Shown: positions 1,481-19,700 of the stretch, one piece after another
Layout: each line of letters begins with the position of its first letter
Position numbering within the stretch: the stretch's first letter is position 1
Made by a program: the position numbers and the translations under genes
From: Ignavibacteria bacterium GWF2_33_9
Lineage (GTDB): Bacteria > Bacteroidota > Ignavibacteria > Kapaibacteriales > UBA2268
Direction of reading: 5' to 3'
Assembly: GCA_001804565.1 (NCBI GenBank)
Contig: MHAC01000016.1
Span: 1 to 37,183 of the forward strand
Length of the DNA stretch: 37,183 bases
The notes under the pieces: model-generated
Seen by the model: only the letters and a program-made list of their open reading frames with translations
Told to the model about the DNA's origin: nothing
The model's database searches: none

Positions 1481-1534
1481 AAGAAATCACGAAGTGGTTC
1501 AATAAATAATCAGTTCAAAATAAAAGGAAATTTG

Positions 1535-1542
1535 TAATTTTG
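1535..1542 (+). promoter_or_regulatory. Bacteroidota-type -7 promoter box (TAnnTTTG) for the VOC gene
   Basis: TAATTTTG 46 nt upstream of ATG 1589; the same motif precedes several other units in the window. Confidence 0.5.
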
Positions 1543-1588
1543 TGAATATTTTTGACTTTGATTTATTCAATTAAAAATAAGGATTTAA

Positions 1589-2086
1589 ATGAAAACAAAT
1601 AATCCCTTGCAAATATGCCTTTGGTTCGATAATCAGGCAGAAGAAGCAGTTAACTTTTACTCTTCTCTTTTTCCGAATTCGAAAATTGGAAAAATTGCTC
1701 GTTACACTTCCGAAGGAAAGGAAATTCACGGACAGGACGAAGGTAAAGTAATGACAATAGATTTCGAATTGAACGGAATGAAGTTCATTGCTCTAAATGG
1801 TGGTCCAATATTCAAATTCAATGAGTCAATGTCCATTTGTGTGATGTGCGATACTCAGGAGGAAATTGACTATTACTGGTCTGAGCTTACTAAAGAAGGT
1901 GCTGAAAGTTATTGCGGCTGGTTGAAGGATAAATTCGGAGTATCCTGGCAGATTGCTCCAAATGTATTGAGCAATATGCTTTCTGATGAGAATCCGAGGA
2001 AAGTTCAAACAGTTACAGCTGCTTTTATGCAGGTTCGTAAGTTTGTCATTGCAGATTTATGGACGGCATTTAATTCAGTGAAATAG
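1589..2086 (+). CDS. VOC family protein (PhnB / 3-demethylubiquinone-9 3-methyltransferase-like)
   Basis: CLWFDNQAEEAVNFY, FIALNGGP-FKFNESMS, QEEIDYYW and CGWLKDKFGVSWQI motifs. Confidence 0.9.
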   Translation: MKTNNPLQICLWFDNQAEEAVNFYSSLFPNSKIGKIARYTSEGKEIHGQDEGKVMTIDFELNGMKFIALNGGPIFKFNESMSICVMCDTQEEIDYYWSELTKEGAESYCGWLKDKFGVSWQIAPNVLSNMLSDENPRKVQTVTAAFMQVRKFVIADLWTAFNSVK

Positions 2087-2140
2087 TTTTCAAACTATGT
2101 ATTACTAAGGAATCTCAACAATTCACCAAATTTATATATC

Positions 2141-2163
2141 AAAAAAGGGGCTCATTGCCCCTT
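2141..2163 (-). terminator. Intrinsic terminator of katG (may also serve the convergent VOC gene)
   Basis: AAGGGGC-tcatt-GCCCCTT hairpin with an A-run on the + strand (U-tract on the minus strand), about 20 nt past the katG stop. Confidence 0.75.
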
Positions 2164-2185
2164 CTCTAATATTGTACATCCTATT

Positions 2186-4399
<2,214 letters not shown>

Positions 4400-6041: not shown

Positions 6042-7226
6042 TTAATTTATAATTTCACTAAATATAATTTGTGAATAGAGATTAGAAATCGTCTTGTAAT
6101 ATTCTAATTCATTTATTAGAATATTATCTAATATCTCATAATATAATTGATTGTCTAAATAATACTGTGTTAATGAGATATGTCCAAGTTTGTATGATTT
6201 TTCATTTAATTCGAGTTGCGAAAAATCAATTAATTCTTTTTGTTCGTCCATCGATTTTTTCAATTCAATAGATTTTTCGAAGAGTATTTTCTTTTTAATA
6301 GATAATCCTGACAAATAGGATTGTTTGTTTAAATTAATGAAATTAATATCACTCAATGCCTTAGGAACTTTGTTTGAGTTTTCAAAAAGAGGGATTGACA
6401 TCTGAAGTTGAATTCCTCTATATTCAAATTCAGGTTCATTTTCATAGCGATAACCTATATCAAAATTCGGCAGCCAACCACTTTTGGCCAAACTTAATTT
6501 TTTATCAAATAATTTCTCTTCATAGATTAATGTATTTAAATAATTATCTAAATCTTTAATTTTGAGAAATAATGAATCGAAGTTAGAAATAAGTTCAACT
6601 TGGAAATATTCGTTTAGATTTATTTCAAATGATTCGCCTCCATTTAAATTTATCAATTCGAATTTGAAAGAGCGTAAATTTAATTTCGCAATATTTAACT
6701 TGGTTTTATCAACCGAATAAGAAGATTTTACCTTATTTAATTCTAAAATACCAACATCTCCTGCATCAAATCTTGTTTGAATTGTATTTAACATATTTTC
6801 AGAAGAAATACTCCTTTGTTCTAACTCTGCCACCAGTTTAGTTTGATAAATATAGTTCATCAAAATATCCTGTGCATTTTCAAAAACTTGGAGCATTAAT
6901 TCTTTGAATTTATTTTCATAATATTTTATTTGGTAAGAAGCTATATCAGATTTTAGAAAATAAATACTAGGGAATTCAAATGGTTGAGAAATTGTTAATT
7001 CTTGTTTATTACCGGGAATGAGACCAATTCCAGATAAATATGAATATTCAATAGATGGATTTTGGGGTAATAAACCGGTTTTGCTTTCAAATTTAATTGA
7101 GTTTAATTGCTCTCTGTAAGCTTTAATTTCCAGATTATTTTTAATAATATTTCTCAGAATATCATTATAAGATTGAGAGAAGGCAATATTAAATGAAATT
7201 AGAATTAAAAATATATATTTGATCAT
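6042..7226 (-). CDS. TolC/CzcC-family outer-membrane factor of the heavy-metal RND system
   Basis: Signal peptide; NPSIEY, ISQPFEFP, RFDAGDVGILELNK, WLPNFDIG, MSIPLF and YKLGHISL patterns of OMFs; start overlaps the RND stop (ATGA, 7223-7226). Confidence 0.85.
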   Translation of the reverse strand: MIKYIFLILISFNIAFSQSYNDILRNIIKNNLEIKAYREQLNSIKFESKTGLLPQNPSIEYSYLSGIGLIPGNKQELTISQPFEFPSIYFLKSDIASYQIKYYENKFKELMLQVFENAQDILMNYIYQTKLVAELEQRSISSENMLNTIQTRFDAGDVGILELNKVKSSYSVDKTKLNIAKLNLRSFKFELINLNGGESFEINLNEYFQVELISNFDSLFLKIKDLDNYLNTLIYEEKLFDKKLSLAKSGWLPNFDIGYRYENEPEFEYRGIQLQMSIPLFENSNKVPKALSDINFINLNKQSYLSGLSIKKKILFEKSIELKKSMDEQKELIDFSQLELNEKSYKLGHISLTQYYLDNQLYYEILDNILINELEYYKTISNLYSQIIFSEIIN

Positions 7227-10200
7227 GATATTTTCCTATTTAATATTCTACTTTTTTGAGTAATATAATATACAATTGGTAGTACGATTAAGTTCAAAAA
7301 TGTGGAACTAAACAGTCCTCCAAGGATAACTTCAGCCATCGGACTTTGAATCTCATTTCCGGGCTTATCACCTGCCAGAACTAATGGAACCAACGCTAAT
7401 GCAGCAGTGAGAGCAGTCATCAATACGGGATTTAGTCTATCCAAAGAGCCTTGAATAATTGCATCTTTTAATGCTAATCCATCGTCTATGAGTTTGTCAT
7501 AGCGTGAAACCATTAAAATACCATTTCTGGTAGCTATCCCAAAAAGAGTTATAAATCCAATTAAAGATGGTATGCTTATGATTGAGGATGAGAACCAAAT
7601 AATAATAATTCCACCAATCAAAGCTAATGGTAAATTTATTAAAATTACTCCAGCAGTAAGATAATTCTTGAATTCCTGATAGAGAATAAAGAAAATTAAA
7701 AGAATGGAAACAATTGAAACTAAGATTATAATTCTAGAAGCATTTTCCTCACTTTCGAATTGACCTCCATATTCCACATAATAATTATCAGGCAGCTCTA
7801 TTTTAGTATTAACTACCGATTTAATTTCGTTAACAGCACTCCGTACATCCCTATCTGCAACATTTGCAGAAATAATAATTCTTCTTTTTACATTTTCACG
7901 GTTTATTACATTAAGTCCTTTTGCAGAACGAATCTCGGCAATATCTCCTAATTTAATTATTTCTCCCTCTCTGGTATCTACCGGAACATTTTTCAAAGTT
8001 AGATAATCATCTCTATATTCTTTTTTTAACCTTAAGAGCAAATCGAAAGATTTTTCGTTTTCAAACACATTTCCAATAATTTCGCCTCCTAAAGCAGTAT
8101 TGATGATTTCATTAAAATGACCAAGAGAAATTCCATATCTGTTTAGAACTTCACGTTTAGGAATAATGTGAATTTGAGGTACCGACATGATTTGTTCAAC
8201 ACTCAGGTCTGCAACACCATCTATTTCAGAAATTTCAGTATTGATTTTGTTCGCAATTGAATACATCAAGTCCAGATTCGTGCCAAAAAGTTTAATAGCT
8301 ATGCTTGTTTTCACACCGGAAATAATATGATCTATTCTATGACTGATTGGTTGACCAATATTGAAAACGATGCCTGTTATTGATGATAATTTACTCCTCA
8401 CGTCTTTCAGAAATTCCTTTCTGGATCTGTTGGTTAATTTAAATGGGGTTTCAATTTCAGAGATACTGGAGCCGAAGGAATGTTCAGAAAGTTCTGCCCT
8501 TCCGGTTTTTCGGGCTGTAGAGATAACTTCCGGAATGGATAAGAGTGCTCTTTCTGTTTGAACGCCAATTTTATCAGATTCTTCTAGTGAAATACCGGGT
8601 GTAGTAGCAACATTAATTGTTAGCGAGCCTTCGTTGAAAACCGGTAGAAAATTTCTTCCGAGAAATTTAATTGAAATTAATGAACCTATTAATATTATTG
8701 CAACAGTAACGATAATTTTCTTTCGATGCGAAAATGATAAAGAGAGTACTTTCAAATAAACTTTCTTAAGAAAAGTGATTAAGAAATTATCGCTTTTTTG
8801 CCTGCCAAGTAGTTTTTTGTCGGTTAATAAATAACTGCATAATACGGGAGTAATCGTAATCGAAACAATTAATGAGGCAAATAATGAAATCACAAATGAA
8901 ACACCAAGAGGTTGCAGCATTCTGCCTTCCACACCACTAAGGAAGAATAATGGCAGAAAAGCAATAATAATAATGAACGTTGCTTTAATTATGGATGCCC
9001 TAATTTCCATTGATGCATCATAAACTACTTTGAAAGTGCTTTGTTTGAGTGAATCAGGTAAATAATAATTTTCTTTTAATCTCTTGAATACATTTTCCAC
9101 ATCAATAATTGCATCATCCACAAGAGAACCAATTGCTATGGCCATTCCGCCCAAACTCATAGTATTTATACTAAGTCCAAAGATTTTCATTATAATTATT
9201 GTAGTCAGTAATGAAAGTGGTATGGAGATAATAGAAATAATTGTTGTCCTAAAGCTCATTAAGAAAATGAATAGAATAATTATTACAAATATTGCACCTT
9301 CTAATAAAGCATTCTGGACATTGTCAATTGATGTGTTAATAAAATTGGCTTGATGAAAAGGTTCTGTCTTGAATTTAATATTTCCGGGTAAATTCTTTGA
9401 AAGATCTTGAATATTAGCAGTAATTTTTTTAGTTAAATCAATTGTGCTTACTCCTGATTGCTTTGTAACAGTAATTATAACTGCAGGTTTTTCATTATAC
9501 GATGCTTTGTTTAAGCTCTGAGCAGGCATGATTTGGACTTCTGCAATGTCCTTTAACCTAACAGGAAATCCATCAATCATTTTAATAACACTCAGGGCAA
9601 TTTCTTCGGGATTTGTAGTTCTCGATAGACCTCTTATGATATATTCATTTCCGAATTGATTGAAAAATCCTCCATTAGAATTTACATTCATATTTTTGCA
9701 AGCTTCAAGTATATCATCAACAGAAATTCCATAAGTTTGCATTTTCTGGGCATCAATTAATATCTGAAATTGCTTTTCATCACCGCCCATAACGGAAACT
9801 TGTGCAACTCCTCCCAAAGCAAGTAATCTTGGTTTCACATTCCAATCTGCAATTGTACGTAAATCCATTTGCGAAAGGGAATCCGATGTCATGGCAAATA
9901 CGAATATTTCTCCAAGCAAGGATGTTTGTGGTGCAAGTATTGGTGCAGATGTACCTTCGGGTAATTTACCGGAGATCTGCGATAATTTTTCGGTAACGAT
10001 CTGCCTGTCTCTGAATACATCTGTTCCCCAGTCAAATTCTACCCAAACAATAGAAAATCCCATTGTAGAATTTGATCTTACTCTACGCACACCCGGTGAA
10101 CCATTCATGACAGTTTCTATCTGAAAGGTTATCATTTTTTCAACTTCTTCTGGGGCCATACCTTGGGCTTCTGTCATTACTACAACGGTAGGTGCACTCA

Positions 10201-10327
10201 AATCAGGGAAAATATCTACGTCCATGTTTGAAGAAATTACTATACCGCTAATCATTACTATTATCCCGAAGATCAATACAGGAATTTTATTTGTTAATGA
10301 GAAATTTAAAATTTTATTTAGCATCAT
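7223..10327 (-). CDS. czcA: CzcA/CusA-family heavy-metal efflux RND permease
   Basis: 1034 aa. VDIFPDLSAPTVVVMTEA-GMAPEEVE, SLGGMAIAIGSLVDDAIIDVEN, FLPLFFLSGVEGRM, TGRAELSEH, GQPISHRIDH, GIATRNGI and RLNPVLMTA. Family-level call with unknown metal specificity; start may be 10324. Confidence 0.88.
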   Translation of the reverse strand: MMLNKILNFSLTNKIPVLIFGIIVMISGIVISSNMDVDIFPDLSAPTVVVMTEAQGMAPEEVEKMITFQIETVMNGSPGVRRVRSNSTMGFSIVWVEFDWGTDVFRDRQIVTEKLSQISGKLPEGTSAPILAPQTSLLGEIFVFAMTSDSLSQMDLRTIADWNVKPRLLALGGVAQVSVMGGDEKQFQILIDAQKMQTYGISVDDILEACKNMNVNSNGGFFNQFGNEYIIRGLSRTTNPEEIALSVIKMIDGFPVRLKDIAEVQIMPAQSLNKASYNEKPAVIITVTKQSGVSTIDLTKKITANIQDLSKNLPGNIKFKTEPFHQANFINTSIDNVQNALLEGAIFVIIILFIFLMSFRTTIISIISIPLSLLTTIIIMKIFGLSINTMSLGGMAIAIGSLVDDAIIDVENVFKRLKENYYLPDSLKQSTFKVVYDASMEIRASIIKATFIIIIAFLPLFFLSGVEGRMLQPLGVSFVISLFASLIVSITITPVLCSYLLTDKKLLGRQKSDNFLITFLKKVYLKVLSLSFSHRKKIIVTVAIILIGSLISIKFLGRNFLPVFNEGSLTINVATTPGISLEESDKIGVQTERALLSIPEVISTARKTGRAELSEHSFGSSISEIETPFKLTNRSRKEFLKDVRSKLSSITGIVFNIGQPISHRIDHIISGVKTSIAIKLFGTNLDLMYSIANKINTEISEIDGVADLSVEQIMSVPQIHIIPKREVLNRYGISLGHFNEIINTALGGEIIGNVFENEKSFDLLLRLKKEYRDDYLTLKNVPVDTREGEIIKLGDIAEIRSAKGLNVINRENVKRRIIISANVADRDVRSAVNEIKSVVNTKIELPDNYYVEYGGQFESEENASRIIILVSIVSILLIFFILYQEFKNYLTAGVILINLPLALIGGIIIIWFSSSIISIPSLIGFITLFGIATRNGILMVSRYDKLIDDGLALKDAIIQGSLDRLNPVLMTALTAALALVPLVLAGDKPGNEIQSPMAEVILGGLFSSTFLNLIVLPIVYYITQKSRILNRKIS

Positions 10328-10338
10328 TTTTCCCTATA

Positions 10339-11862
10339 TTAATGAACATGAGAGTGTGAAGGTAATTCTGAGTTTTTCGATGCAAGCATAACTTTATAAG
10401 TACCCTTGCTCACAATTACATCGTTAAGAGCAATACCGGATTCAATTTTATAGTTTACGCCGTCAAAGCCTGAAATTTCCACTTCTCTTTTTTCAAATAA
10501 TTCTCCATTTTTCTGAAGAAAGACATAAAAATGTCCTTGATCTTCCCAAATTGAGGATTTTGGTACAAGAAGTGAATTAGTATTAATTTTCCCTTTTAAA
10601 TATGCAGTTAAAATTGTATTTGGGGTTATTCCAAATTTATTTTCTATTTCAAAATACAAGCTTACATATGTGGATGCATTATAGACAGGTCCTCCGGTAA
10701 TTTTGGCTTTTAATTCCTGTAAATTATATACTTTATTTCCTATTTCGAAGTTAGCATTACTCACAAAAGCCAATTCCAAATATTCATCATTTGGAATGTC
10801 CACTCGAATAAATAATTTGTTATTATTAGTCAGAATTGCCAGGGGAGTGCCTGCTTCTACAAATTGACCTTCATTAACCAAAACTTTTTTTATAAATCCT
10901 GACTTAGGGGCATTGACAGATATTTTGCCCCCTTTTATCAATTGGGAGAGTTTATTATATTCAGCAGTTGACTTTTCCAATTCAGTTTTGGCATTTAGGT
11001 ATTCACTTTCTGAAACAATTTTTGATTCGTACAATTTTGAAATTCTATCAAAGTCTTTAATATTTTTATCCATATCAGATTTTGCATTTGCGAATTTGAC
11101 TTGAAAATTATCATCTCTTGTACTATTGGCTGAAATTTTGAAAAGCTGCTCACCTGCTTTTATTTTTTTGCCGGGTATAGTAGAATTTGAATTAATACTC
11201 AAAATTCCTGAAGCGGTAGAATTGATATATATCTCCTCTGATGTTGGCAATTCTGTTATTCCGGTTGCCTTATAGGATTCTGCAAAATGATGCAAGGTAA
11301 CTTTGGTGAGAGCAAAATCAATTTTCCATGCTTCTTCTTTCAAGAAGGTAATTCCATCTTCCGCAGGCAAAGTATGATGTTTTGCTTCTGATTCGGATGC
11401 AAAACATTGTTGTGAAGCCACTTTAATGGTATCGCTAAATTCTCCATTTTCATAAATAAAGGCAATATTTACAGCCCCAGATTTTTTCGGAGTATATGAG
11501 GCAAGAAAAATTCCGGCTCTAGCGATAGAATCAACATATATTTCTGAATTTAAATCGCCTGATAAAACAATCCTGAGAGCTCCTTTTGTAATTGCTTTGA
11601 AATCACTCAATTTTGTAAAATGTACCACAAATTCACTTTCTTTATTTATGATTAATGGAGTCATTTCAGCAAACAATTCATGAGCATCAGAAAATACTGT
11701 GAATTTGATATTTTCGAGGTCACCTGATCCATGCCCATGCCCTTCATGCTCCTGACCTGCATCGTCATTTCCATTTTCTGAATGGTCATGGGTTTCAAAA
11801 TCTGTTTTGGAGCATGCTGCAAATAATATTATAAACAAAACTAAACTAAAATATTTAGTCAT
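10339..11862 (-). CDS. Efflux RND periplasmic adaptor subunit (CzcB/CusB-like lipoprotein) with His-rich ends
   Basis: Lipobox FAA-C; N-terminal HDHSE..EHEGHGHG; lipoyl/hairpin motif APKSGFIKKVLVNEGQFVEAG; LLVPKSSI, FEKREV; C-terminal HSHVH. Confidence 0.88.
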   Translation of the reverse strand: MTKYFSLVLFIILFAACSKTDFETHDHSENGNDDAGQEHEGHGHGSGDLENIKFTVFSDAHELFAEMTPLIINKESEFVVHFTKLSDFKAITKGALRIVLSGDLNSEIYVDSIARAGIFLASYTPKKSGAVNIAFIYENGEFSDTIKVASQQCFASESEAKHHTLPAEDGITFLKEEAWKIDFALTKVTLHHFAESYKATGITELPTSEEIYINSTASGILSINSNSTIPGKKIKAGEQLFKISANSTRDDNFQVKFANAKSDMDKNIKDFDRISKLYESKIVSESEYLNAKTELEKSTAEYNKLSQLIKGGKISVNAPKSGFIKKVLVNEGQFVEAGTPLAILTNNNKLFIRVDIPNDEYLELAFVSNANFEIGNKVYNLQELKAKITGGPVYNASTYVSLYFEIENKFGITPNTILTAYLKGKINTNSLLVPKSSIWEDQGHFYVFLQKNGELFEKREVEISGFDGVNYKIESGIALNDVIVSKGTYKVMLASKNSELPSHSHVH

Positions 11863-11909
11863 AATAATCCTTTTTAAATTAAATTAATGAAAAATTAAAA
11901 AATCTTAAA

Positions 11910-12326
11910 TTAGGAGAAACTGGGCGGTGCTCTTAATTTGAGAGGCGTAGTTATTATGGATTCAAGCCGAGTTATACTTTGTTTTACAATTCTTTCTTTA
12001 AAGTTTGGTGGATTTTTGAATATTTCTTGAGCATCAAAGATAACAAATGTTTTTTCATAAGAAGAATTTTTATCTGATAGAGGTTTATACTTAACTAAGT
12101 CATAAATCTGACGAAAATGTTCCAGATGGTTTACATCACTTTCGGAATTTTCATGATTGGGCAAATTAGAATCATGATGTTCGCTTTCAAATATACCAGA
12201 AAAGAAATCGTTTAATTTGCAGATTTCAACATTCATAACCCTGATATGGACATGTGGGAACAATTCATGAGCAAAATTCACGAATATGGCTGATATTAAA
12301 ACAAATATTATTACTTTTTTCTTCAT
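11910..12326 (-). CDS. Exported His-rich leader protein with C-terminal RAPP motif (candidate arrest-peptide regulator, functionally analogous to DUF2946 proteins)
   Basis: MKKK plus hydrophobic signal segment, HELFPHVH, a His-rich middle, and the ending LRAPPSFS-stop 47 nt before the adaptor gene. Confidence 0.75.
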   Translation of the reverse strand: MKKKVIIFVLISAIFVNFAHELFPHVHIRVMNVEICKLNDFFSGIFESEHHDSNLPNHENSESDVNHLEHFRQIYDLVKYKPLSDKNSSYEKTFVIFDAQEIFKNPPNFKERIVKQSITRLESIITTPLKLRAPPSFS

Positions 12327-12392
12327 CAGGATTGTTTGAAAAATTCTTTTAAATTGAATTAATTACTTCAGATTTAATTTGCAAATAAAACG

Positions 12393-12426
12393 CAAATCTA
12401 AAGAATAATATTTTAATAGAACCAAA
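12393..12426 (-). promoter_or_regulatory. Proximal promoter of the leader-czc operon
   Basis: Minus strand TAGATTTG (12400-12393) matches TAnnTTTG; TTTG at 12426-12423 gives a 22-nt spacer, slightly long. Confidence 0.45.
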
Positions 12427-12575
12427 AATTTTTTTTTATTTCAGATTTTACATACATTAAAATTGACCAGGGCAAAAAAAAATAACTTAAATTGAAAGTC
12501 GCTGGAATGCAAGATTGGGATAGAAAAAAATAAAATTTACGTAAAAATTACACAAAAAGAATCAAATCCAAGAAG

Positions 12576-12606
12576 CAAAATTAAATAAATGTGGAAAAGT
12601 TTCAAA
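12576..12606 (-). promoter_or_regulatory. Distal minus-strand promoter divergent from the tRNA promoter
   Basis: Minus strand TTTG (12606-12603), 19 nt, TAATTTTG (12583-12576). Confidence 0.45.
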
Positions 12607-12612
12607 AAAAGT

Positions 12613-12643
12613 TTTGTAGATTTATAAAGTTTTCGTAATTTTG
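12613..12643 (+). promoter_or_regulatory. Promoter of the tRNA-secE-nusG-rplKA unit
   Basis: TTTG (12613-12616), 19 nt, TAATTTTG (12636-12643): the established Bacteroidota -33/-7 architecture, 15 nt before tRNA-Tyr. Confidence 0.7.
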
Positions 12644-12658
12644 TATTCTTTTCAAAAT

Positions 12659-12742
12659 GGGCAGGTACCGAAGTGGTTAAACGGGACAGACTGTAAATCT
12701 GTTAGGCTGCGCCTTACGGAGGTTCGAATCCTTCCCTGCCCA
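12659..12742 (+). tRNA. tRNA-Tyr(GTA)
   Basis: Acceptor GGGCAGG/CCTGCCC, anticodon arm ACAGA-CT GTA AA-TCTGT, long variable arm, GGTTCGAATCC; CCA not encoded. Confidence 0.97.
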
Positions 12743-12799
12743 CAGATTTTGGAAGTAGAAGAAGGAAGCAGATTAGAATAAGAAGTTGGAGATTGATAA

Positions 12800-12872
12800 G
12801 CGGGAGTAGCTCATTCGGTAGAGCATCAGCCTTCCAAGCTGAGGGTGGCGGGTTCGAGTCTCGTCTCCCGCT
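12800..12872 (+). tRNA. tRNA-Gly(TCC)
   Basis: GCGGGAG/CTCCCGC, TCAGC-CT TCC AA-GCTGA, GGTTCGAGT, discriminator T. Confidence 0.97.
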
Positions 12873-12885
12873 CGAGAAAAAAAAC

Positions 12886-12929
12886 TTGCAGGATATTCAT
12901 TTGGAAAATATACTGCAATAGTTCTTTAA
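12886..12929 (+). promoter_or_regulatory. boxB-like hairpin followed by a boxA-like antitermination sequence
   Basis: TTGCAGGATATT...AATATACTGCAA stem (12886-12918), then AGTTCTTTAA (12920-12929), resembling rrn boxA. Confidence 0.45.
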
Positions 12930-12991
12930 AGTATGTTAAATACTCAGATTTAGTGGGAGGAAGCTCCGATCAGAATATCGCAAAGGATTCT

Positions 12992-13063
12992 GCGGGAATA
13001 GCTCAGAGGTAGAGCATCAGCTTCCCAAGCTGAGGGTCACGGGTTCGATCCCCGCTTCCCGCT
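12992..13063 (+). tRNA. tRNA-Gly(CCC)
   Basis: GCGGGAA/TTCCCGC, TCAGC-TT CCC AA-GCTGA, GGTTCGATCC; one A-C mismatch at the T-stem base. Confidence 0.93.
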
Positions 13064-13069
13064 CTCGAC

Positions 13070-13142
13070 GCTGATGTAGCTCAGCTGGCAGAGCACTTCC
13101 TTGGTAAGGAAGAGGTCACGGGTTCAAGTCCCGTCATCAGCT
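13070..13142 (+). tRNA. tRNA-Thr(GGT)
   Basis: GCTGATG/CATCAGC, CTTCC-TT GGT AA-GGAAG, ACGGG-TTCAAGT-CCCGT. Confidence 0.97.
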
Positions 13143-13156
13143 CAAAGCGGTACCAC

Positions 13157-13229
13157 ACGGGTGTAGCTCAATTGGTAGAGTGGCGGTCTCCAAAACCGTA
13201 GGCTGTGGGTTCGAGTCCTACCACCCGTG
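13157..13229 (+). tRNA. tRNA-Trp(CCA)
   Basis: ACGGGTG/CACCCGT, GCGGT-CT CCA AA-ACCGT, GGTTCGAGTCC; usual position before secE. Confidence 0.97.
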
Positions 13230-13253: not shown

Positions 13254-13436
13254 ATGGTAAAAAAGATTAAATCATTTGTAAACGACGTAGTTGTTGAAAT
13301 GAAGAAAGTTACTTGGCCAACAAGGGAACAGCTTATGGAATCAACCAGAGTTGTTATTGGTACTTCATTGATAATCACTTCTATCGTTTTTGTAGTTGAC
13401 CAGGTTACTACCTGGGTTTACTCGTTTCTTTTTTAA
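13254..13436 (+). CDS. secE: Preprotein translocase subunit SecE
   Basis: EMKKVTWPTREQL motif plus a single TM helix; lies between tRNA-Trp and nusG. Confidence 0.96.
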   Translation: MVKKIKSFVNDVVVEMKKVTWPTREQLMESTRVVIGTSLIITSIVFVVDQVTTWVYSFLF

Positions 13437-13445
13437 TTTGGTGTT

Positions 13446-14084
13446 ATGATGGATGAAATTCAAAATATGGATGAACTTCAAAATACTGAGGAACTTCAAA
13501 ATACTGAAGAACTTCAAAATGCTATTCCTGAAGAACAACAAGAAGAAGTTGAGGCTAAGTGGTATGCACTTAGGACTTATACAGCACACGAAAATAAAGT
13601 AAAAGCTCAAATTGAGGCTGAAGTCAAAAGATTGGGCATTGAAGAAAAAGTGGTTGAAATTGTTGTTCCTGAGGAAACTGTATTCGAAGTACGTAATGGG
13701 AAGCGTCGCACCAAAGTGAAAAATTTTCTTCCTGGTTATATAGTTCTAAAATGTATTCTCAATAAAAAATTGAAGGATATTATCGTTGCATTGCCATCGG
13801 TTGTGTCTTTCGTTGGCCGCAGGAATGAACCTACAGCTTTGCAGCAAATCGAAGTTGACAGAATTTTGGGTCGTGTGGAAGAACGTAAGGACGTTTCCAC
13901 AATCGAAACAGCATTCCAGACCGGAGATCCGGTGAGAATAATTGACGGTCCTTTCAATACATTTTTGGGAACAGTAAAGGAAGTGAATTTAGAAAAGCAA
14001 AAACTCAAAGTTGAAGTTGGAATTTTGGGTAGAAAAACTCCTGTCGAACTTGATTTTACTCAAGTCGAGATGGAAACACACTAA
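13446..14084 (+). CDS. nusG: Transcription termination/antitermination factor NusG
   Basis: KWYALRTYTAHENKVK, FLPGYI, KOW motif GDPVRIIDGPF, ILGRKTPVELDFTQVE. Confidence 0.97.
   Translation: MMDEIQNMDELQNTEELQNTEELQNAIPEEQQEEVEAKWYALRTYTAHENKVKAQIEAEVKRLGIEEKVVEIVVPEETVFEVRNGKRRTKVKNFLPGYIVLKCILNKKLKDIIVALPSVVSFVGRRNEPTALQQIEVDRILGRVEERKDVSTIETAFQTGDPVRIIDGPFNTFLGTVKEVNLEKQKLKVEVGILGRKTPVELDFTQVEMETH
13449..13520 (+). repeat. 18-bp in-frame tandem repeat x4 in the nusG 5' end
   Basis: ATGGATGAAATTCAAAAT / ATGGATGAACTTCAAAAT / ACTGAGGAACTTCAAAAT / ACTGAAGAACTTCAAAAT, encoding MDEIQN MDELQN TEELQN TEELQN. Confidence 0.9.
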
Positions 14085-14116
14085 CAAAGAAAGTAAAAAG
14101 ATAAACAGAGAATAAA

Positions 14117-14542
14117 ATGGCAAAGAAATTATTAGGAACATTTAAACTTCAATTGAATGCAGGTCAAGCATCAATGTCACCTCCTGTGGGTCCCGCATTT
14201 GGTCAGAGAGGTTTGAATGGTATGGAGTTTGTAAAGCAATTCAATGCTAAGACTCAAAAACAAGCCGGAACACTATTGCCGGTAGTTGTTTCTTACTATT
14301 CAGATAAGAGTTTTACTTTTTTGGTAAAAACTCCTCCTGCAGCAGTTTTGCTCAAAAAAGCAGCAAATCTTAAGTCAGGTTCAGCTGAATCGAATAAGAA
14401 AAAAGTGGGCAAAGTAACACTTGCTCAAGTTCAAGAAATTGCAGAATTAAAAATGGTGGATTTAAATGCATTCACAATGGAATCTGCTATGAGTATGATT
14501 AAAGGAACTGCCCGTTCAATGGGCGTTGAGATTGAAGGTTAA
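14117..14542 (+). CDS. rplK: 50S ribosomal protein uL11
   Basis: [33 protein letters not shown]. Confidence 0.98.
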
Positions 14543-14553
14543 GGTGAAGAGAA

Positions 14554-15252
14554 ATGAGAAAATTTAGTAAAAGATTTGAAGTTGTATTTAAAGCTGTAGA
14601 CAAAGCTAAAGCTTACGATGTGCTAGAAGCTATCTCTTTGGTAAAGAAGAACGCTACTGCTAAATTTGATGAATCATTCGAAGTTGCAATTCGCTTGGGT
14701 GTAGATCCTCGTAAAGCAGATCAAATGGTTCGTGGTACAGTTTCCCTTCCAAATGGAACCGGAAAAACTGTAAGAGTTCTCGTACTTGCAAAAAGTCCGA
14801 AAGATCAGGAAGCATTGAATGCTGGTGCTGATTTTGCAGGACTTGATGAATACGTAGAAAAAATCAAAGGCGGCTGGACTGACGTTGACGTGATTATCGC
14901 TACTCCCGACGTAATGGGTGAAGTTGGTAAATTAGGTCGTATTTTAGGCCCACGTGGTTTGATGCCAAATCCTAAGGTTGGTACAGTTACTTTCGATGTG
15001 GAAAAAGCTGTTAGCGAAGTAAAAGCAGGTAAGATTGAATACCGTGTGGATAAATCCGGTAATGTTTCTGCTGCAATTGGTAAATGTTCATTCAATGATG
15101 ACCAATTATTGCAAAATTTCGTAACGTTTTTCAATAACATATTAAGAGCAAAACCATCAACAGCTAAAGGAAGATACATCAAGCACATCAGTATTAGTTC
15201 CACAATGGGACCAGGTGTGGCAATAAGCGAAAGCACTATACCGGTTGAATAA
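14554..15252 (+). CDS. rplA: 50S ribosomal protein uL1
   Basis: [45 protein letters not shown]. Confidence 0.98.
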
Positions 15253-15427
15253 GATTTAACTTACAGAAGTTAAGTTTTGCAAAAAACGAAGTTATTTGAA
15301 AGTACGAAAGAAATTTTAACAATAATAAAATTATAAATAAGGCTATTACGCTACTTGCAGTAAGCTTCTACTTGCAATTTAAAAATTGCATGTTACTGTG
15401 GGTGACAAATAAATCAACGGAAATGCT

Positions 15428-15952
15428 ATGAAAAATTTAGAATCAAAAAAGCAGATCGTTGGGGAATTAGTTGAACAACTCCGCAATGCGAATGGGGTGT
15501 ATTTCATCAACTTTGAAAAAATGGATGTTGCGTCCGTTGTGAATTTACGTGGTCTTTTCCATAAAGAAAACGTATCCTACAAAGTTGCAAAAAATACACT
15601 TATCTGGAGAGCGCTCAATGAAGCAGGATTCGAAGGACTCGAAGAAAGCTTTTTGGTAGGCAATACAGGACTTGCATTCGGGAGTGATGACCCATTAGTT
15701 CCGGCAAAAATTCTGAAACCAATCCTGGACAAAAGCGATAAGCCAAAGTTCAAAGGTGCATTGGTGGAAGGAGTTTTCTACGGTGCGGATCAACTGAAAA
15801 CATTGGCATCATTGCCATCGAAGACAGATTTGATTGCCGGTATCCTAGGCAGCTTGAATTCACCAATTTCAGGTATTGTCGGTTCGATCAATGCAGTAAT
15901 GCGTGATTTGGCTTCAGTTATTGAAGAAGCCGCTAAAAAAAGAAGTGCATAA
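15428..15952 (+). CDS. rplJ: 50S ribosomal protein uL10
   Basis: LRGLF...YKVAKNTL, LASLPSK; position between rplA and rplL. Confidence 0.96.
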   Translation: MKNLESKKQIVGELVEQLRNANGVYFINFEKMDVASVVNLRGLFHKENVSYKVAKNTLIWRALNEAGFEGLEESFLVGNTGLAFGSDDPLVPAKILKPILDKSDKPKFKGALVEGVFYGADQLKTLASLPSKTDLIAGILGSLNSPISGIVGSINAVMRDLASVIEEAAKKRSA

Positions 15953-16039
15953 GCACTCTAAATAAGTGCTAAAGCACTAGTATCGGTGGAATTCCGATAG
16001 ATTTTTTAAAATGTATAAAAATATTTTTGGAGTAATAAA

Positions 16040-16429
16040 ATGTCTGAAAAAATTGAAAAATTATTAGAAGAGATTTCCTCTTTAACATTAGTTGAAGCTT
16101 CTGAATTAAAAACAGCTTTAGAAGATAAGTTTGGTGTAACTGCAGCTGCTCCTATGATGATGGGCGGTGTTATGCCAGCAGCTGGCGCAAGTGCTGATGC
16201 ACCTGTAGCTGAAGAACAAACTGAATTTGATGTTGAATTAACTGAAATTGGCGCAAACAAAATCAACGTTATCAAAATTATCCGTGAAATCACTGGATTA
16301 GGTTTGAAAGACGCTAAAGATTTAGTTGAAGCTGCACCAAAAGTAGTTAAAGAAGCAACTTCAAAAGCAGATGCTGAAGATTTGAAGAAGAAAATCGAAG
16401 AAGCTGGCGCTAAAGTAACTCTTAAGTAA
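16040..16429 (+). CDS. rplL: 50S ribosomal protein bL12 (L7/L12)
   Basis: [52 protein letters not shown]. Confidence 0.98.
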
Positions 16430-16451
16430 TTACTTTTTTTCTTAATGGAAT

Positions 16452-16486
16452 TACCGGGGAATCTCACCCCGGTATTTCTTATTTTT
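16452..16486 (+). terminator. Intrinsic terminator after rplL
   Basis: TACCGGGG-aatctca-CCCCGGTA followed by TTTCTTATTTTT. Confidence 0.8.
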
Positions 16487-16673
16487 ATGAAATCGTAATA
16501 TTCTCATATTTTTCGTAGATTTTATTATTTATTAACAATATTTATGTAAATTATTGCTGATATAATAAAATTAATTAACTTACGTTACTAATAATCTATA
16601 ATTATTATTTTTCTGAAGAAAAAATCAATAAACAATTGATAAAAGTAAAGTTTGAACAAACTGATTTTTTCAT

Positions 16674-16725
16674 AGGGTTTTTGATGTTCGATCAAGTAAA
16701 TTGAACATCAAAGGTCCTTTTTTTT
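16674..16725 (+). terminator. Terminator/attenuator-like hairpin in the rpoB leader
   Basis: 19-bp stem (16674-16692 with 16700-16718, four G-U pairs), 7-nt loop, then a T-run, ending about 10 nt before the rpoB SD. Confidence 0.65.
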
Positions 16726-16747
16726 ATTTTTTGCAAAGGAGGTTCCG

Positions 16748-19700
16748 GTGGGAACACTAAACGGTCAAAATGAAATTACTAATGTTGATTACTTGTTAAA
16801 TACTTACAAGGACGCAACATACGATAAAGATGCAGATATAAAATTGATGGAAAGCGATTCCGGAATTATACGTTTACGCAGAAGAATTGATTTTTCCAGA
16901 TTTGGCAAAACTGACCATTATCCTGATTTGCTCGATATTCAAATCCGCTCTTACAAGGATTTTTTGCAAGATGATGTTCTTCCTTCAAAAAGGGGAATGC
17001 AAGGTTTGCAAAAAGTCTTCAATAATAATTTCCCAATTGAGGATGCTTCCTCAGTTTACCAGTTGGAATTTGTTGAATATAGCATTGAGCGCCCAAAATA
17101 TTCTGAAAAAGAATGTCGTGAACGTGAGTTGACTTTTTCAAAACCATTGAAAGCTAAATTGCGTTTATCCAGCAAAGCAGATCCGGAATCTGAAGATTTT
17201 ATCGAAGCTGTTGAACAAGAAGTATATCTTGGTAATATTCCTGCAATGACTAATCGTGGGACATTTATCATTAATGGTGCTGAACGTATTATCGTTAGCC
17301 AAATTCACCGTTCACCCGGAGTATTTTTTGATGATACAATGCATCCGAACGGAATGAGAATATATTCAGCAAGAATTATTCCTTTGCGTGGTTCATGGGT
17401 AGAATTTACTACAGATATTCACGAAGTGCTATATTGCTATGTGGATCGTAAGAAAAAATTCCCAGCAACTTCACTTTTGCGTGCTTTGGGATTTTCTTCT
17501 GACGTGGACATTTTGAAATTGTTCGATTTGATGGATACAGTAAATCCTGAAGATATTGATGAATCTCATGTGAACAGACGTGTTGCATCCGATATCGTAG
17601 ATTTGAATACAGGTGAAATAATTGCATCCAGAGATGCTGTGCTTACTGAAGCATTGTACAAACAGATTAAAGCAACCGATATTTTGCCGATAAGTTTCTT
17701 CAAACAATTTGATCCGGGCGAAGAACCTGTGATTGCAAAAACTTTGCAGAAAGATACTACTCGCAACCGTGAAGAAGCCCTGGAAACAATTTACCGTACA
17801 ATCCGAACAACTGAACCACCTGATTTAGAAACAGCTGCAGGACTTTTGGATAAACTATTCTTTACAAATCAGAGATACGATTTGGGTGCTGTCGGCAGAT
17901 TCAAAATTAAAGATGTTTTGCATGTTGATATTGCCGATGATGTACATGTGCTCACAATCACAGACTTTGTGGAAGTTATTCGCCATCTGCTATATCTCCA
18001 TGATAATAAATTGACCGGAGACGATATTGACCACTTGGGCAACCGTCGTGTACGTACAGTTGGCGAACAGTTTGCAAATCAGTTCAATATTGGTTTGGCA
18101 AGAATGGCTCGTACTATTAAGGAAAAATTAGGATTAAAAGATAATCAGTCGCTATCTCCTACAGAGTTGGTGAATGCAAGAACAATATCATCGGTAATAA
18201 ATCAATTTTTCGGAACAAATCAGTTGTCACAGTTCATGGATCAAACAAATCCACTTGCTGAACTGACGCACAAAAGAAGAGTGTCCGCATTAGGACCGGG
18301 CGGTTTGAGTCGTGAAAGAGCAGGCTTCGAAGTACGTGACGTTCACTATACTCACTATGGCCGCTTATGCCCGATTGAAACACCTGAAGGTCCAAATATC
18401 GGTTTGATTTCATCTTTGGCAATTCACTCCGATATTGATGAATTAGGTTTTATTATTACACCGTACAAAAAAGTAATTGATGGCATTGTAACTGATGAAA
18501 TCGTTTATCTTACTGCCGACGAAGAAGATGCTTACACTTTAATTCCTGCTTCAACAAGAATTGAAGCTAACGGGAAAATAGTGGAACCTAAACTTAGGGC
18601 AAGGAAATCCGGTGATTTTGTGCTGGTTACTCCTGAAGAAGTTAACTTCATGGATATTTCTACAGACCAAATTTCTTCTGCTGCAGCCTCACTCATCCCA
18701 TTCCTGGAACATGATGATGCGAACCGTGCACTTATGGGTTCGAATATGCAACGTCAAGCTGTTCCATTATTGCGTCCGAACGCTCCAATTGTTGGGACAG
18801 GTATGGAAGCACGTGTTGCAAAAGACTCACGTTCAATTGAATTTGCCCGTGGTAATGGTTATGTAAAATACGTTAGTGGTGATAAAATTATCGTTGAATA
18901 CGATGATGAAAGAGATGAACGAAATAAATATTGCTCCTGGGGACATGAAAATGTTATTTCTTATGAATTGAAAAAATTTGAAAGAACAAATCAGGACACA
19001 ACAATAAATCATAAACCACTCGTTAAACAAGGTCAGAAAGTTGTGAAGGGAACCCCATTAGTGGATAATTCCTCATCAGAAAAAGGCGAATTGGCACTTG
19101 GTAAAAATGTGTTGGTAGCATTTATGCCTTGGCGTGGTTATAACTTCGAAGATGCGATTATTATCTCTCAGAAATTAGTTGCCGAAGACGTGTTTACTTC
19201 AGTTCATATTGAAGAATTTACTTTGCAGGTACGTGACACAAAACGTGGCGAAGAAGAATTTACTCGTGAAATCCCTAATGTTAGCGAAGAAGCAGTTAAA
19301 GATTTGGACGAAAAAGGCATAATCCATATAGGTGCTAAAGTCAAAGAAGGAGATATACTTATTGGTAAGATTACTCCTAAAGGAGAAACTGACCCTACAC
19401 CTGAAGAAAAACTACTACGTGCAATATTCGGTGATAAAGCAGGAGATGTGAAAGATGTTTCACTCAAAGCAACTCCTGGTTTGCGTGGTATAGTTATGAA
19501 TACTAAAGTATTCTCACGCCGCCAGATTACACAGGATAAATTGACAAAAGAAAAAGATAAAAAAGCTCAGGAAAATCTGAACAAGAAGGAAAAATCGGAA
19601 CTAGCAGCTTTGGATAATGAAGTAATCGCAAGACTCGGTAAATACCTAAATGGTCAGGTTACTTTGGGAATCAAACTCAAAAACGGAGTACAAGTATTCC

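What the first reader, a model, noticed from the sequence alone, without database searches (positions are those of the whole stretch)
11863..12326. Candidate metal-sensing ribosome-arrest leader (signal peptide + His motifs + LRAPP) controlling a heavy-metal exporter
Seen: a 138-aa ORF with a Sec-type N-terminus (MKKKVIIFVLISAIFVNFA), an HELFPHVH motif, further His residues (EHHD..NHE..NHLEH), a spacer of about 60 aa, and RAPP (codons 11933-11922) three codons before the stop. The adaptor gene starts 47 nt later. Established: RAPP/RAGP-type motifs stall ribosomes in ApdA, ApdP and SecM, and DUF2946-type leaders (CruR, CutF) combine a signal segment, a CxxC metal site and a C-terminal proline-rich/RAPP-type motif to control downstream copper genes. 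Here there is only one Cys and no CxxC. Inference: a His-based variant in which the nascent chain senses periplasmic Zn/Ni/Co during export and stalling tunes a CzcCBA-type efflux operon. The intergenic RNA is U-rich with no strong hairpin, so coupling may act through termination or polarity rather than RBS unmasking.
Basis: partly seen in the sequence, partly recalled or inferred. Interest (0 to 1): 0.85.

Follow-up and report, generated by a model that had tools for sequence, protein, structure and literature searches.

The report
Ribosome-stalling leader of metal-efflux operon
A small exported protein gene that ends in the ribosome-stalling motif RAPP sits in front of a heavy-metal efflux pump operon and most likely acts as a built-in metal-responsive switch, a kind of control already described for copper genes in other bacteria.

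Summary
Window 11910-12326(-) is a 138-aa ORF with a hydrophobic N-terminus, His motifs, and RAPP three codons before the stop. It lies 47 nt upstream of an RND adaptor / CusA-CzcA-type pump / outer-membrane-factor operon.

All 16 of 16 orthologous adaptor genes found in 130 genomes of the same GTDB family (Ignavibacteria) carry such a leader: 15 have RAPP and 1 has RSPP. The motif is held through synonymous codon changes. The N-terminal H-x4-H-x-H motif and a His pair 62-66 residues before the Arg are conserved, while the spacers are only 18-23% identical.

The family has no Pfam match but is a distant relative of the uncharacterised DUF6769.

In 9 of 18 related loci, the stop-codon region pairs with the adaptor's ribosome-binding site, and a ribosome modelled at the RAP/P stall opens that pairing. 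In the window's own copy this helix is weak (-4.9 kcal/mol, z +0.93).

Best reading (about 0.6): a CruR/CutF-like arrest leader built on His rather than Cys. The general class is already published (Roy 2022; Ozturk 2023; Fujiwara 2025), so this is a new variant and not a new kind. Stalling, the metal sensed and the way stalling is coupled to the downstream genes are all untested.

The parts
11910..12326 (-). Leader ORF, 138 aa (P0001), first gene of the operon
   Evidence: homologues sit upstream of all 16 of 16 orthologous adaptor genes
12270..12326 (-). Residues 1-19: MKKK followed by a hydrophobic segment, read as a signal peptide or signal anchor
   Evidence: Kyte-Doolittle 15-residue maximum 2.81 at residue 5. 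It is the only confidently modelled element, helix 2-22 with pLDDT >90. No SignalP-type predictor was available.
12246..12269 (-). N-terminal His motif H20-x4-H25-x-H27 (HELFPHVH), preceded by invariant N17
   Evidence: invariant columns in 10- and 14-sequence alignments; regional pairwise identity 0.68, against 0.18-0.23 in the spacers
12117..12128 (-). Middle His pair H67/H70, at -65/-62 from R132
   Evidence: H70 is invariant. The His pair sits at -64/-62 in 8 core-family sequences and at -66/-64 in 6 of the 24 sequences compared.
11922..11933 (-). RAPP codons (R132 A133 P134 P135). [quoted passage not shown]
   Evidence: 23 RAPP and 1 RSPP in 24 sequences; synonymous codon variation; stall state taken from PMC10951233
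11910..11921 (-). Tail S-F-S plus the TAA stop. In relatives this stretch is the strand that pairs with the adaptor's ribosome-binding site.
   Evidence: in this window the pairing is weak (UCCU/AGGA plus A-U pairs, MFE -4.9 kcal/mol, z +0.93)
11863..11909 (-). 47-nt A/U-rich intergenic region with an SD-like AGGA at 11868-11871
   Evidence: no terminator-like site; no Rfam family apart from the tRNAs elsewhere in the window
10339..11862 (-). RND periplasmic adaptor (P0002): lipoprotein-type N-terminus with a His-rich stretch, about 200 aa of unassigned N-terminal region, and a C-terminal H-x-H-x-H
7223..10327 (-). CusA/CzcA-family heavy-metal RND pump (P0003)
   Evidence: The positions aligned to the CusA methionine triad read N, I and H (the identity of the triad is recalled).
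6042..7226 (-). Outer-membrane factor, OEP family (P0004); its start overlaps the pump's stop by 4 nt

Best explanation
The 138-aa ORF is a cis-acting arrest leader that works like CruR or CutF.

Proposed sequence of events (inferred, not shown). The N-terminal hydrophobic segment takes the nascent chain to the Sec translocon. When the ribosome reaches RAP(134)/P(135), peptide-bond formation stalls, as it does in ApdA, ApdP and CruR. At that moment the N-terminal His triad (H20, H25, H27) lies at the outer face of the membrane. The His pair 62-65 residues from the Arg has just left the ribosome tunnel and translocon. Binding of a periplasmic metal to these His residues is proposed to alter the pulling force on the chain and so the lifetime of the stall. 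The metal is probably divalent (Zn, Ni, Co or Cd), because the ligands are all His and the pump lacks the CusA methionine triad.

Coupling to the pump. The stalled ribosome covers the last codons and the stop codon. In about half of the related loci this stretch pairs with the adaptor's ribosome-binding site, so a longer stall means more adaptor, pump and outer-membrane factor. In this window's own copy that helix is marginal, so the coupling step here is the weakest link.

Shown: a real gene, its position at the head of the operon, motif and spacing conservation, and the RBS-masking helix in relatives. Inferred: the stalling, metal sensing, the direction of control and the identity of the metal.
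For: 1. Synteny. Adaptor orthologues (E<=1e-60) were found at 16 loci in 15 of 130 family genomes. All 16 have an upstream ORF of 124-147 aa with a hydrophobic N-terminus, an H..[PIV]H.H-type motif and R[AS]PP 2-8 residues before the stop.

2. Selection acts on the protein. The RAPP codons differ synonymously between members (AGA/CGT; GCA/GCG/GCC/GCT; CCN). The single variant, RSPP, is partially arrest-permissive in ApdA and ApdP (PMC12992588).

3. Rarity. RAPP is absent from 1912 long ORFs of this genome, where 1.9 would be expected. It is reported as strongly excluded from bacterial proteomes and enriched near the C-termini of small secretory proteins upstream of metal genes (PMC12992588 section 13).

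4. Pattern of conservation. Invariant residues are N17, H20, H25, H27, H70, R132, P134 and P135. Regional identity is 0.68 and 0.69 at the two ends, against 0.18 and 0.23 in the spacers.

5. Spacing. The His-pair-to-RAPP distance is fixed within 0-3 residues in the core family. This parallels the fixed CxxC-45-RAPP spacing of DUF2946 (PMC9426467).

6. No confident fold beyond the N-terminal helix. AF2 gives mean pLDDT 53.9 and pTM 0.23. The Atlas model has pLDDT 0.49.

7. RNA. In 9 of 18 loci (7 genera), opening the RBS becomes 3.5-8.4 kcal/mol easier when a 28-nt footprint is placed at the stall. In 7 of those 9 the effect begins exactly at the stall position. The middle base of the stop codon pairs A-U in UAA loci and G-C in four UGA loci.

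8. No metal-responsive regulator lies next to the operon. The neighbours are a peroxidase, QueA, tRNAs, SecE, NusG and ribosomal protein genes.

9. Precedent. CruR has RAPP three residues before its C-terminus and heads a metal operon. For CutF, a stall melts a stem-loop that shields the RBS.
Against: No experiment of any kind exists for this family or for DUF6769. Literature searches returned 0 relevant papers for DUF6769 and 0 for DUF6660.

In the window's own copy the stop-region/SD helix is not distinguishable from chance. The duplex is -4.8 kcal/mol, and 131 of 500 shuffles do as well. The modelled gain at the stall is 0.42 kcal/mol. The MFE is -4.9 kcal/mol with z +0.93. Seven of the 18 loci show no unmasking effect at all.

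The window's copy is also the most divergent member. It lacks the PF-x-H-x-H form of the middle motif.

Export was inferred from hydropathy only. In several members the residue before the first His is I, L or F, which does not fit signal-peptidase cleavage.

The AF2 alignment had only 10 sequences, so the low confidence is weak evidence for disorder.

RAPP arrest depends partly on the upstream context and on the species' ribosome. Nothing is known for Ignavibacteria.

Conserved His residues and co-transcription with a pump also fit a protein that works in trans.
Confidence: 0.6

Rival explanations
1. The ORF encodes a working exported or membrane-anchored metal-binding accessory protein of the pump, such as a His-based metallochaperone or gatekeeper. 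It acts in trans. RAPP is then a structural C-terminal element, or at most a translational pause with no regulatory role.
For: There are eight His, four of them invariant, plus a hydrophobic N-terminus. The ORF always co-occurs with one adaptor type whose own termini are His-rich. The window's copy has no convincing RBS-masking helix.
Against: No confident fold is predicted. The spacers are only 18-23% identical. RAPP is invariant through synonymous changes, and the only substitution seen is the arrest-permissive Ser. RAPP is otherwise avoided in this genome. The stop region pairs with the RBS in 9 of 18 relatives, and this pairing opens exactly at the stall position.
Confidence: 0.2
2. The window's copy is a decaying leader. 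The family is a stall-based switch, but this member has lost the masking helix and part of the middle His motif, so the operon is expressed constitutively or is controlled elsewhere.
For: It is the most divergent member, 23-36% identical to the others. The PF-x-H-x-H motif is reduced to H-x2-H. RBS opening costs only 3.7 kcal/mol and does not change with a stalled ribosome.
Against: All eight invariant residues, the RAPP codons, the three-codon tail and the His-to-RAPP spacing are intact. The ORF is open and full length. The same helix topology is still the MFE of the 86-nt region, although weak. G027 and G144, which keep a canonical middle motif, also lack a strong helix.
Confidence: 0.1
3. 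CruR-type logic. The stalled ribosome blocks Rho-dependent termination in the intergenic region, and metal relieves the stall and switches the operon off.
Against: Switching an efflux pump off when metal is present is the wrong direction. The 47-nt intergenic region is A/U-rich with a single C, which makes a poor Rho loading site (read directly). No intrinsic terminator is present. Relatives have RBS-masking helices instead.
Confidence: 0.07

Closest known systems
CruR (Bordetella pertussis Bp2923; Pfam DUF2946). Roy et al. 2022, PMC9426467; passages read.
   Same: A small (145 aa) exported upstream ORF that heads a metal-homeostasis operon. [quoted passage not shown] A metal-ligand motif sits at a fixed distance from RAPP. 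The stall is not relieved by EF-P.
   Different: CruR has a CxxC motif 45 residues from RAPP; here the ligands are all His and sit 62-65 residues away. No sequence similarity was detected (no DUF2946 hit). CruR controls a TonB-dependent importer through Rho termination and is switched off by copper. Here the downstream genes encode an efflux pump, and relatives use RBS masking.
CutF (Rhodobacter capsulatus) and the rule-based 'CutF-like' set. Ozturk et al. 2023, PMC9973294, sections 10-12 read; 2025 preprint 10.1101/2025.02.05.636593, abstract and discussion read.
   Same: Meets the rule-based criteria: under 150 aa, an N-terminal signal-like segment, PP within the last 15 residues, and a same-strand downstream gene within 1000 nt. 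The published mechanism is periplasmic metal prolonging a stall that melts a stem-loop over the next gene's RBS. That is the topology seen in 9 of 18 relatives here. The paper reports RND components as common neighbours and notes that His-only clusters exist.
   Different: CutF stalls on an EF-P-sensitive PPP motif and senses copper through CxxxC. The published His-only clusters sit next to HupE/UreJ genes, not RND adaptors. Whether DUF6769-type proteins are in their list D could not be checked, because the supplements are closed.
Pfam DUF6769 (PF20558), an uncharacterised Bacteroidota family
   Same: Same architecture: a hydrophobic N-terminus, an H-x3-PH... motif, and G/L-RAPP 2-4 residues before the stop. 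It occupies the same position upstream of His-rich lipoprotein RND adaptors. Two of the 16 leaders upstream of orthologous adaptors score above the Pfam cut-off, at 39.9 and 31.4 bits against 27. hhalign gives 97.1% probability over the N-terminal 33 columns. The family profile finds a DUF6769 member at E 5.8e-5.
   Different: The window's protein and its nine closest relatives give no DUF6769 hit even at E<=10. They lack the PHHHH run and the conserved Cys residues.
ApdA / ApdP / SecM monitoring substrates. Morici et al. 2024, PMC10951233, passages; Fujiwara et al. 2025, PMC12992588, sections 8, 10, 13 and passages.
   Same: A RAPP (or RAGP) arrest core near the C-terminus of a small exported protein. 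[quoted passage not shown] The next gene is controlled by the stalled ribosome.
   Different: Those peptides monitor Sec or YidC activity and sit upstream of sec or yidC genes. Here the downstream genes encode a metal efflux pump, and the proposed input is a metal.
Streptomyces lividans RAPP/RGPP arrest peptides upstream of metal-related genes (SLIV_16130, SLIV_18480). PMC12992588, passages.
   Same: RAPP/RGPP-bearing small proteins with conserved His or Cys residues upstream of metal genes. The authors propose them as metal sensors.
   Different: A different phylum with no sequence relation. Arrest was shown experimentally for them but not here.

Membership tests
DUF2946 (CruR/CutF Pfam family) | Match to the Pfam model | tested here: not met
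   No Pfam family at E<=1 for P0001. No DUF2946 hit at E<=10 for any of the 10 members.
DUF2946 (CruR/CutF Pfam family) | Conserved CxxC / CxxxC metal motif | tested here: not met
   There is one Cys (C36) and it is not conserved. The invariant ligand candidates are all His.
DUF2946 (CruR/CutF Pfam family) | C-terminal RAPP a few residues before the stop | tested here: met
   RAPP is at residues 132-135 of 138. It is conserved in 23 of 24 relatives, with RSPP in the other.
DUF2946 (CruR/CutF Pfam family) | Fixed spacing between the metal motif and RAPP (45 +/- 2 residues) | tested here: not met
   The spacing is fixed but different. The His pair lies at -64/-62 or -66/-64 in relatives and at -65/-62 in the window.
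CutF-like (rule-based, Ozturk 2023) | [quoted passage not shown] | tested here: met
   138 aa; PP at residues 134-135; adaptor gene 47 nt downstream on the same strand.
CutF-like (rule-based, Ozturk 2023) | N-terminal signal peptide | tested here: inconclusive
   MKKK plus a 15-residue hydrophobic stretch (KD 2.81) and a confident helix at 2-22. No signal-peptide predictor was available. The residue before H20 varies (A, T, I, L, F), so cleavage is doubtful.
CutF-like (mechanistic) | A stem-loop shielding the downstream RBS that a stalled ribosome would open | tested here: inconclusive
   In the window the helix is weak (-4.9 kcal/mol, z +0.93) and the modelled gain is 0.42 kcal/mol. It is present in 9 of 18 related loci.
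DUF6769 (PF20558) | Score above the Pfam gathering cut-off (27 bits) | tested here: not met
   No hit for P0001 or its 9 closest relatives. Two leaders at orthologous positions do pass.
DUF6769 (PF20558) | Detectable homology and the same genomic position | tested here: met
   hhalign 97.1% probability, E 6e-11, over the N-terminal 33 columns only. The family profile finds the DUF6769 member P0014 at E 5.8e-5 with 96% coverage. The position upstream of orthologous adaptors is the same. Nine of the 30 Atlas feature hits, at a score of 0.96, are DUF6769 clusters; this is a lead only.
Sec/YidC monitoring substrates (SecM, ApdA, ApdP) | The downstream gene encodes a protein-localisation component | tested here: not met
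   The downstream genes are an RND adaptor, pump and outer-membrane factor.
RAPP-type arrest peptides (functional class) | Ribosome stalling demonstrated at RAP/P | not testable with these tools
   This needs toeprinting or in vitro translation. Only the motif, its conservation and its rarity were tested.
DUF6660 (PF20365) | Pfam match or profile similarity | tested here: not met
   No hit. hhalign probability 0.2%.

The most novel reading that the evidence does not exclude
This family, and with it DUF6769, is a His-only nascent-chain sensor for divalent metals (Zn, Ni, Co, Cd). One His cluster is held at the outer membrane face by the signal anchor. A second emerges from the translocon exactly when the ribosome reaches RAPP, 62-66 residues earlier in the chain. 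Periplasmic metal bridges the two clusters, removes the pulling force and prolongs an EF-P-resistant RAPP arrest. The arrested ribosome then exposes the start site of an RND efflux operon. That would be the first non-copper, Cys-free arrest-peptide metal switch. It would also give a function to a Pfam DUF found across Bacteroidota and Ignavibacteria.
Probability: 0.3. Interest if true: 0.65.

Novelty: new variant of a known kind. Interest (0 to 1): 0.45.

Why it matters
Metal-sensing arrest leaders have been studied experimentally in two Proteobacteria (CruR, CutF), and RAPP/RGPP arrest was shown for Streptomyces peptides next to metal-related genes. In CruR and CutF the sensed metal is copper, bound through Cys.

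This locus and its 15 syntenic relatives give a compact, testable case in a different phylum. The ligands are all His, the target is an RND efflux pump, the ligand-to-stall distance is conserved, and in half of the relatives an RBS-masking helix begins exactly where a RAP/P-stalled ribosome's footprint ends.

If confirmed, the result would do three things:
- Assign a function to DUF6769 and to an unnamed sister family.
- Extend nascent-chain metal sensing beyond copper.
- Explain how heavy-metal pumps with no adjacent regulator are controlled in these bacteria.

It would not establish a new principle.

Tried and rejected
Single-sequence searches found nothing beyond the protein itself. The word-indexed search of 5.8 billion proteins matched 1 of 9 candidates. 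phmmer over 1.84 billion representatives gave 1 hit. The family appeared only through whole-genome six-frame search and synteny.

The genome contigs pattern scan returned one relative, the G027 contig, out of 68 pattern matches. The metagenome-contig scan had 151 pattern matches and no relatives.

Homology to DUF6660 is rejected: hhalign probability 0.2%.

Rfam finds only five tRNAs in the window, and no known leader or riboswitch in the intergenic region.

The promoter and terminator scan of 11700-12700 found 1 promoter-like site, on the wrong strand, against 5.6 expected, and 0 terminators. A Bacteroidota-type TAnnTTTG element lies 74 nt upstream of the ATG in the window, but it is not at a conserved distance in the other 9 loci (4 of 10 have one at all). 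I dropped it.

MAFFT put 3 of the 9 intergenic rows out of register. I therefore did not run the count of structure pairs or build a covariance model, and used per-locus thermodynamic tests instead.

Expression: no RNA holder is listed for this stretch, and read laying was not used.

Complex prediction, fold search and the listing of cluster members were not used. The model was too poor for a fold search (pLDDT 53.9).

The metal specificity of the pump could not be settled. CusA (504 bits) and ZneA (484 bits) score alike.

Supplements of PMC9973294 (Fig. S6, File S1) were closed. I could not check whether DUF6769-type clusters are already in that paper's list.

Full report
OBSERVATION. On the minus strand, window 11910-12326 is an ATG-initiated ORF of 138 codons. 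It starts with MKKK and a 15-residue hydrophobic stretch. HELFPHVH is at residues 20-27, and further His are at 50, 51, 58, 67 and 70. There is one Cys (C36). RAPP is at residues 132-135 (nt 11933-11922), followed by S-F-S and TAA.

The next gene starts 47 nt later at 11862. It is an RND periplasmic adaptor with a lipoprotein-type, His-rich N-terminus. After it come a CusA/CzcA-family pump (TIGR00914, 817.8 bits) and an OEP-family outer-membrane factor. The description is accurate. The stated start (11863) simply includes the intergenic region.

Chance does not explain the motif. In the 2.65-Mb genome (33% G+C), RAPP occurs in none of 1912 ORFs of >=150 aa, where 1.9 would be expected. It occurs in 4 of 7535 ORFs of >=50 aa, and only two of those lie within 20 residues of a stop. 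The other of the two is in an ORF with no signal-like start.

IS IT A REAL, CONSERVED GENE? Single-sequence searches found only the protein itself, and Pfam and NCBIfam gave nothing.

A six-frame search of 61 related genomes gave one true homologue (E 1.9e-5). It lies directly upstream of the same adaptor type. Both ends are conserved and the middle is not (31% identity overall by BLASTP).

A two-sequence profile searched against 254 genomes of the order found members in ten genomes, counting the window's own. All belong to one GTDB family (ORFs read). A contig of one of them is titled an uncultured Ignavibacteria MAG.

For an independent test I searched for the adaptor instead. Orthologues (E<=1e-60) occur at 16 loci in 15 of 130 family genomes. 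All 16 have an upstream ORF of 124-147 aa with a hydrophobic N-terminus, an H..[PIV]H.H-type motif and R[AS]PP 2-8 residues before the stop. Fifteen have RAPP and one has RSPP. In one locus (L066) the gap to the adaptor is 462 nt; in the other 15 it is 37-122 nt.

The six same-genus genomes searched (94-99% complete) have neither the leader nor the adaptor orthologue. The operon therefore travels as a unit and is accessory.

WHAT IS CONSERVED. In alignments of 10 and 14 sequences, the invariant residues are N17, H20, H25, H27, H70, R132, P134 and P135. Mean pairwise identity is 0.68 for the N-terminal motif, 0.69 for the L-x-L-RAPP block and 0.45 around the middle His pair. It is only 0.18 and 0.23 in the two spacers.

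The RAPP codons differ synonymously among members, so selection acts on the peptide. The one natural substitution, Ala to Ser, is among the few that keep partial arrest in ApdA and ApdP (PMC12992588).

The middle His pair lies at -64/-62 from the Arg in eight core-family sequences and at -66/-64 in six others. In the window's copy it is at -65/-62 (24 sequences in all). More distant members, including DUF6769, place their last His/Cys cluster differently. This fixed distance recalls the CxxC-45-RAPP spacing of DUF2946 (PMC9426467).

AlphaFold2 with the 10-row alignment models only the N-terminal helix with confidence (mean pLDDT 53.9, pTM 0.23). The Atlas model is equally poor. The alignment is shallow, so this is weak evidence that the rest has no stable fold.

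FAMILY PLACEMENT. The 10-row profile found 11 proteins in 5.8 billion, several of them the same as the genome hits. One of them (E 5.8e-5, 96% coverage) is a member of Pfam DUF6769.

DUF6769 members from other Bacteroidota families have the same build. They carry a hydrophobic N-terminus, H-x3-PHHHH, a His/Cys-rich middle and G-L-RAPP 2-4 residues before the stop. They also sit upstream of His-rich lipoprotein RND adaptors.

Two of the 16 leaders at orthologous positions pass the DUF6769 cut-off (39.9 and 31.4 bits). The window's protein and its nine nearest relatives do not match even at E<=10. hhalign links the two alignments at 97.1% probability, but only over the N-terminal 33 columns.

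The ORF is therefore a divergent, Cys-free sister of DUF6769 and lies outside the Pfam model. DUF2946 is not matched, and DUF6660 is unrelated. No paper in the library discusses a function for DUF6769 or DUF6660.

HOW STALLING COULD BE READ OUT. [quoted passage not shown]

I modelled a 28-nt footprint, from -12 to +15 relative to the P-site codon, at successive codons. For each position I computed how much it lowers the ensemble free energy needed to expose the adaptor's ribosome-binding site (-14 to +3).

Results for the 18 loci modelled:
- Nine loci, from seven genera, gain 3.5-8.4 kcal/mol at the stall position. In seven of these the gain is below 2 kcal/mol two codons earlier.
- One locus gains 1.8 kcal/mol.
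- One opens only four or more codons later.
- Seven show nothing. These include the window (0.42 kcal/mol; RBS opening cost 3.7 kcal/mol).

The pairing strand is the leader's last codons plus its stop codon. Its partner is the SD (AUUAGGA-type) in Ignavibacteria loci and the start-codon region in several SD-less loci.

The middle base of the stop codon pairs A-U in 7 of 10 UAA loci. In the 7 UGA loci it pairs G-C in 4 and G-U in 2. The helix is thus kept through sequence change. Three of the G-C loci come from one genus, so the independent events are few.

The tool folds agree. The same helix is both MFE and centroid in relatives, with energies from -8.0 to -27.6 kcal/mol and z down to -3.44. 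In the window the same topology is drawn but at -4.9 kcal/mol, z +0.93, and its duplex is matched by 131 of 500 shuffles.

The family as a whole points to RBS unmasking, as in SecM and CutF, not to termination. The intergenic region has no terminator and only one C.

WHICH METAL. The pump scores alike against CusA (504 bits) and ZneA (484 bits). At the positions aligned to the CusA methionine triad it has N, I and H (the triad's identity, M573/M623/M672, is recalled and not taken from a call).

The leader's ligands are all His, and the adaptor's termini are His-rich. Together these point to divalent cations over Cu(I)/Ag(I), but this is inference.

No metal-responsive regulator lies nearby. 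The neighbours are a catalase-peroxidase-like gene, queA, five tRNAs, secE, nusG, rplK, rplA, rplJ and rpoB.

COMPARISON WITH WHAT IS KNOWN. CruR is 145 aa and exported, has CxxC and has RAPP three residues from its end. It controls a downstream metal gene through RAPP-dependent stalling.

CutF senses periplasmic copper co-translationally, and its stall melts a stem-loop over the next gene's SD.

Ozturk et al. catalogued 5,334 'CutF-like' proteins, defined as under 150 aa, with a signal peptide and a C-terminal PP. Normalised for the number of available proteomes, 40% come from Bacteroidota. Their motifs are Cys-based, His-based or mixed, and they often sit upstream of OEP, ACR_tran or HlyD genes. 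The His-only clusters they describe sit next to HupE/UreJ.

Fujiwara et al. showed that RAPP and RGPP are EF-P-resistant, are avoided in proteomes, and are enriched at the C-termini of small secretory proteins upstream of metal genes.

The present ORF fits this published class by its rules and works like it by every feature I could test. It is not a sequence member of DUF2946, and it differs in ligand chemistry, spacing and target.

VERDICT. I put about 0.6 on a cis-acting, metal-modulated RAPP arrest leader, 0.2 on a trans-acting metal-binding accessory protein, 0.1 on a decaying copy and 0.07 on CruR-type Rho logic.

It is a new variant of a known kind: His-only, with 62-66-residue spacing, in an Ignavibacteria clade outside Pfam, and controlling an RND adaptor. 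Interest is moderate, because the principle is already in print and nothing here is experimental.

The most useful new points are three. The synteny result is 16 of 16. The ligand-to-stall spacing is conserved. A ribosome footprint at the RAP/P stall is exactly what opens the RBS helix in half of the relatives.

Noticed in passing
L009 1363-1689(-), L010 1414-1764(-), L011 1444-1770(-), L012 1492-1821(-), L013 1492-1809(+), L014 1393-1710(-): DUF6660 proteins in other families of the same order also have a hydrophobic N-terminus (with a P-C-x-D motif) and Cys clusters. They end in [W/L]-[R/H/Q]-P-P-[Q/K/R] 1-6 residues before the stop. They sit upstream of a P-type ATPase (L009) or RND pumps (L010, L012). 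They may be a second, Cys-based family of PP-terminated leaders. No paper in the library mentions DUF6660.
   Followed up: partly
window 10339-11862 (-): The adaptor has about 200 N-terminal residues with no Pfam assignment, lying between a His-rich lipoprotein start and the membrane-fusion domains. It ends in H-x-H-x-H. Both features recur in the orthologues and in the adaptors downstream of DUF6769.
   Followed up: no
window 7223-10327 (-): The CusA/CzcA-family pump has N, I and H at the positions aligned to the three methionines of the CusA metal site (triad recalled from memory). It scores almost equally against CusA and ZneA, so its substrate is open.
   Followed up: partly
window 6042-12326: The whole leader-adaptor-pump-OMF operon was not found in the six same-genus genomes searched. 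It lies between queA and a tRNA cluster. The outer-membrane-factor gene has 25% G+C, against 31-34% for the other operon genes and 33% for the genome.
   Followed up: partly
window 12659-13229 (+) and 13254-20650 (+): Five tRNA genes are followed by secE, nusG, rplK, rplA, rplJ and rpoB. This is the usual conserved cluster and is ordinary.
   Followed up: yes
L028 1498-1923(+), L029 1495-1929(+): In two family members RAPP is followed by eight codons, not two to four. In one of them (L028) the modelled RBS opening begins only when the ribosome is four or more codons past the stall.
   Followed up: partly
L066 3448-3879(-) and adaptor 1486-2985(-): One genome (G209) carries two leader-adaptor loci. 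One has a core-family leader and the other a DUF6769-positive leader, which sits 462 nt upstream of its adaptor. That gap was not examined for further features.
   Followed up: no
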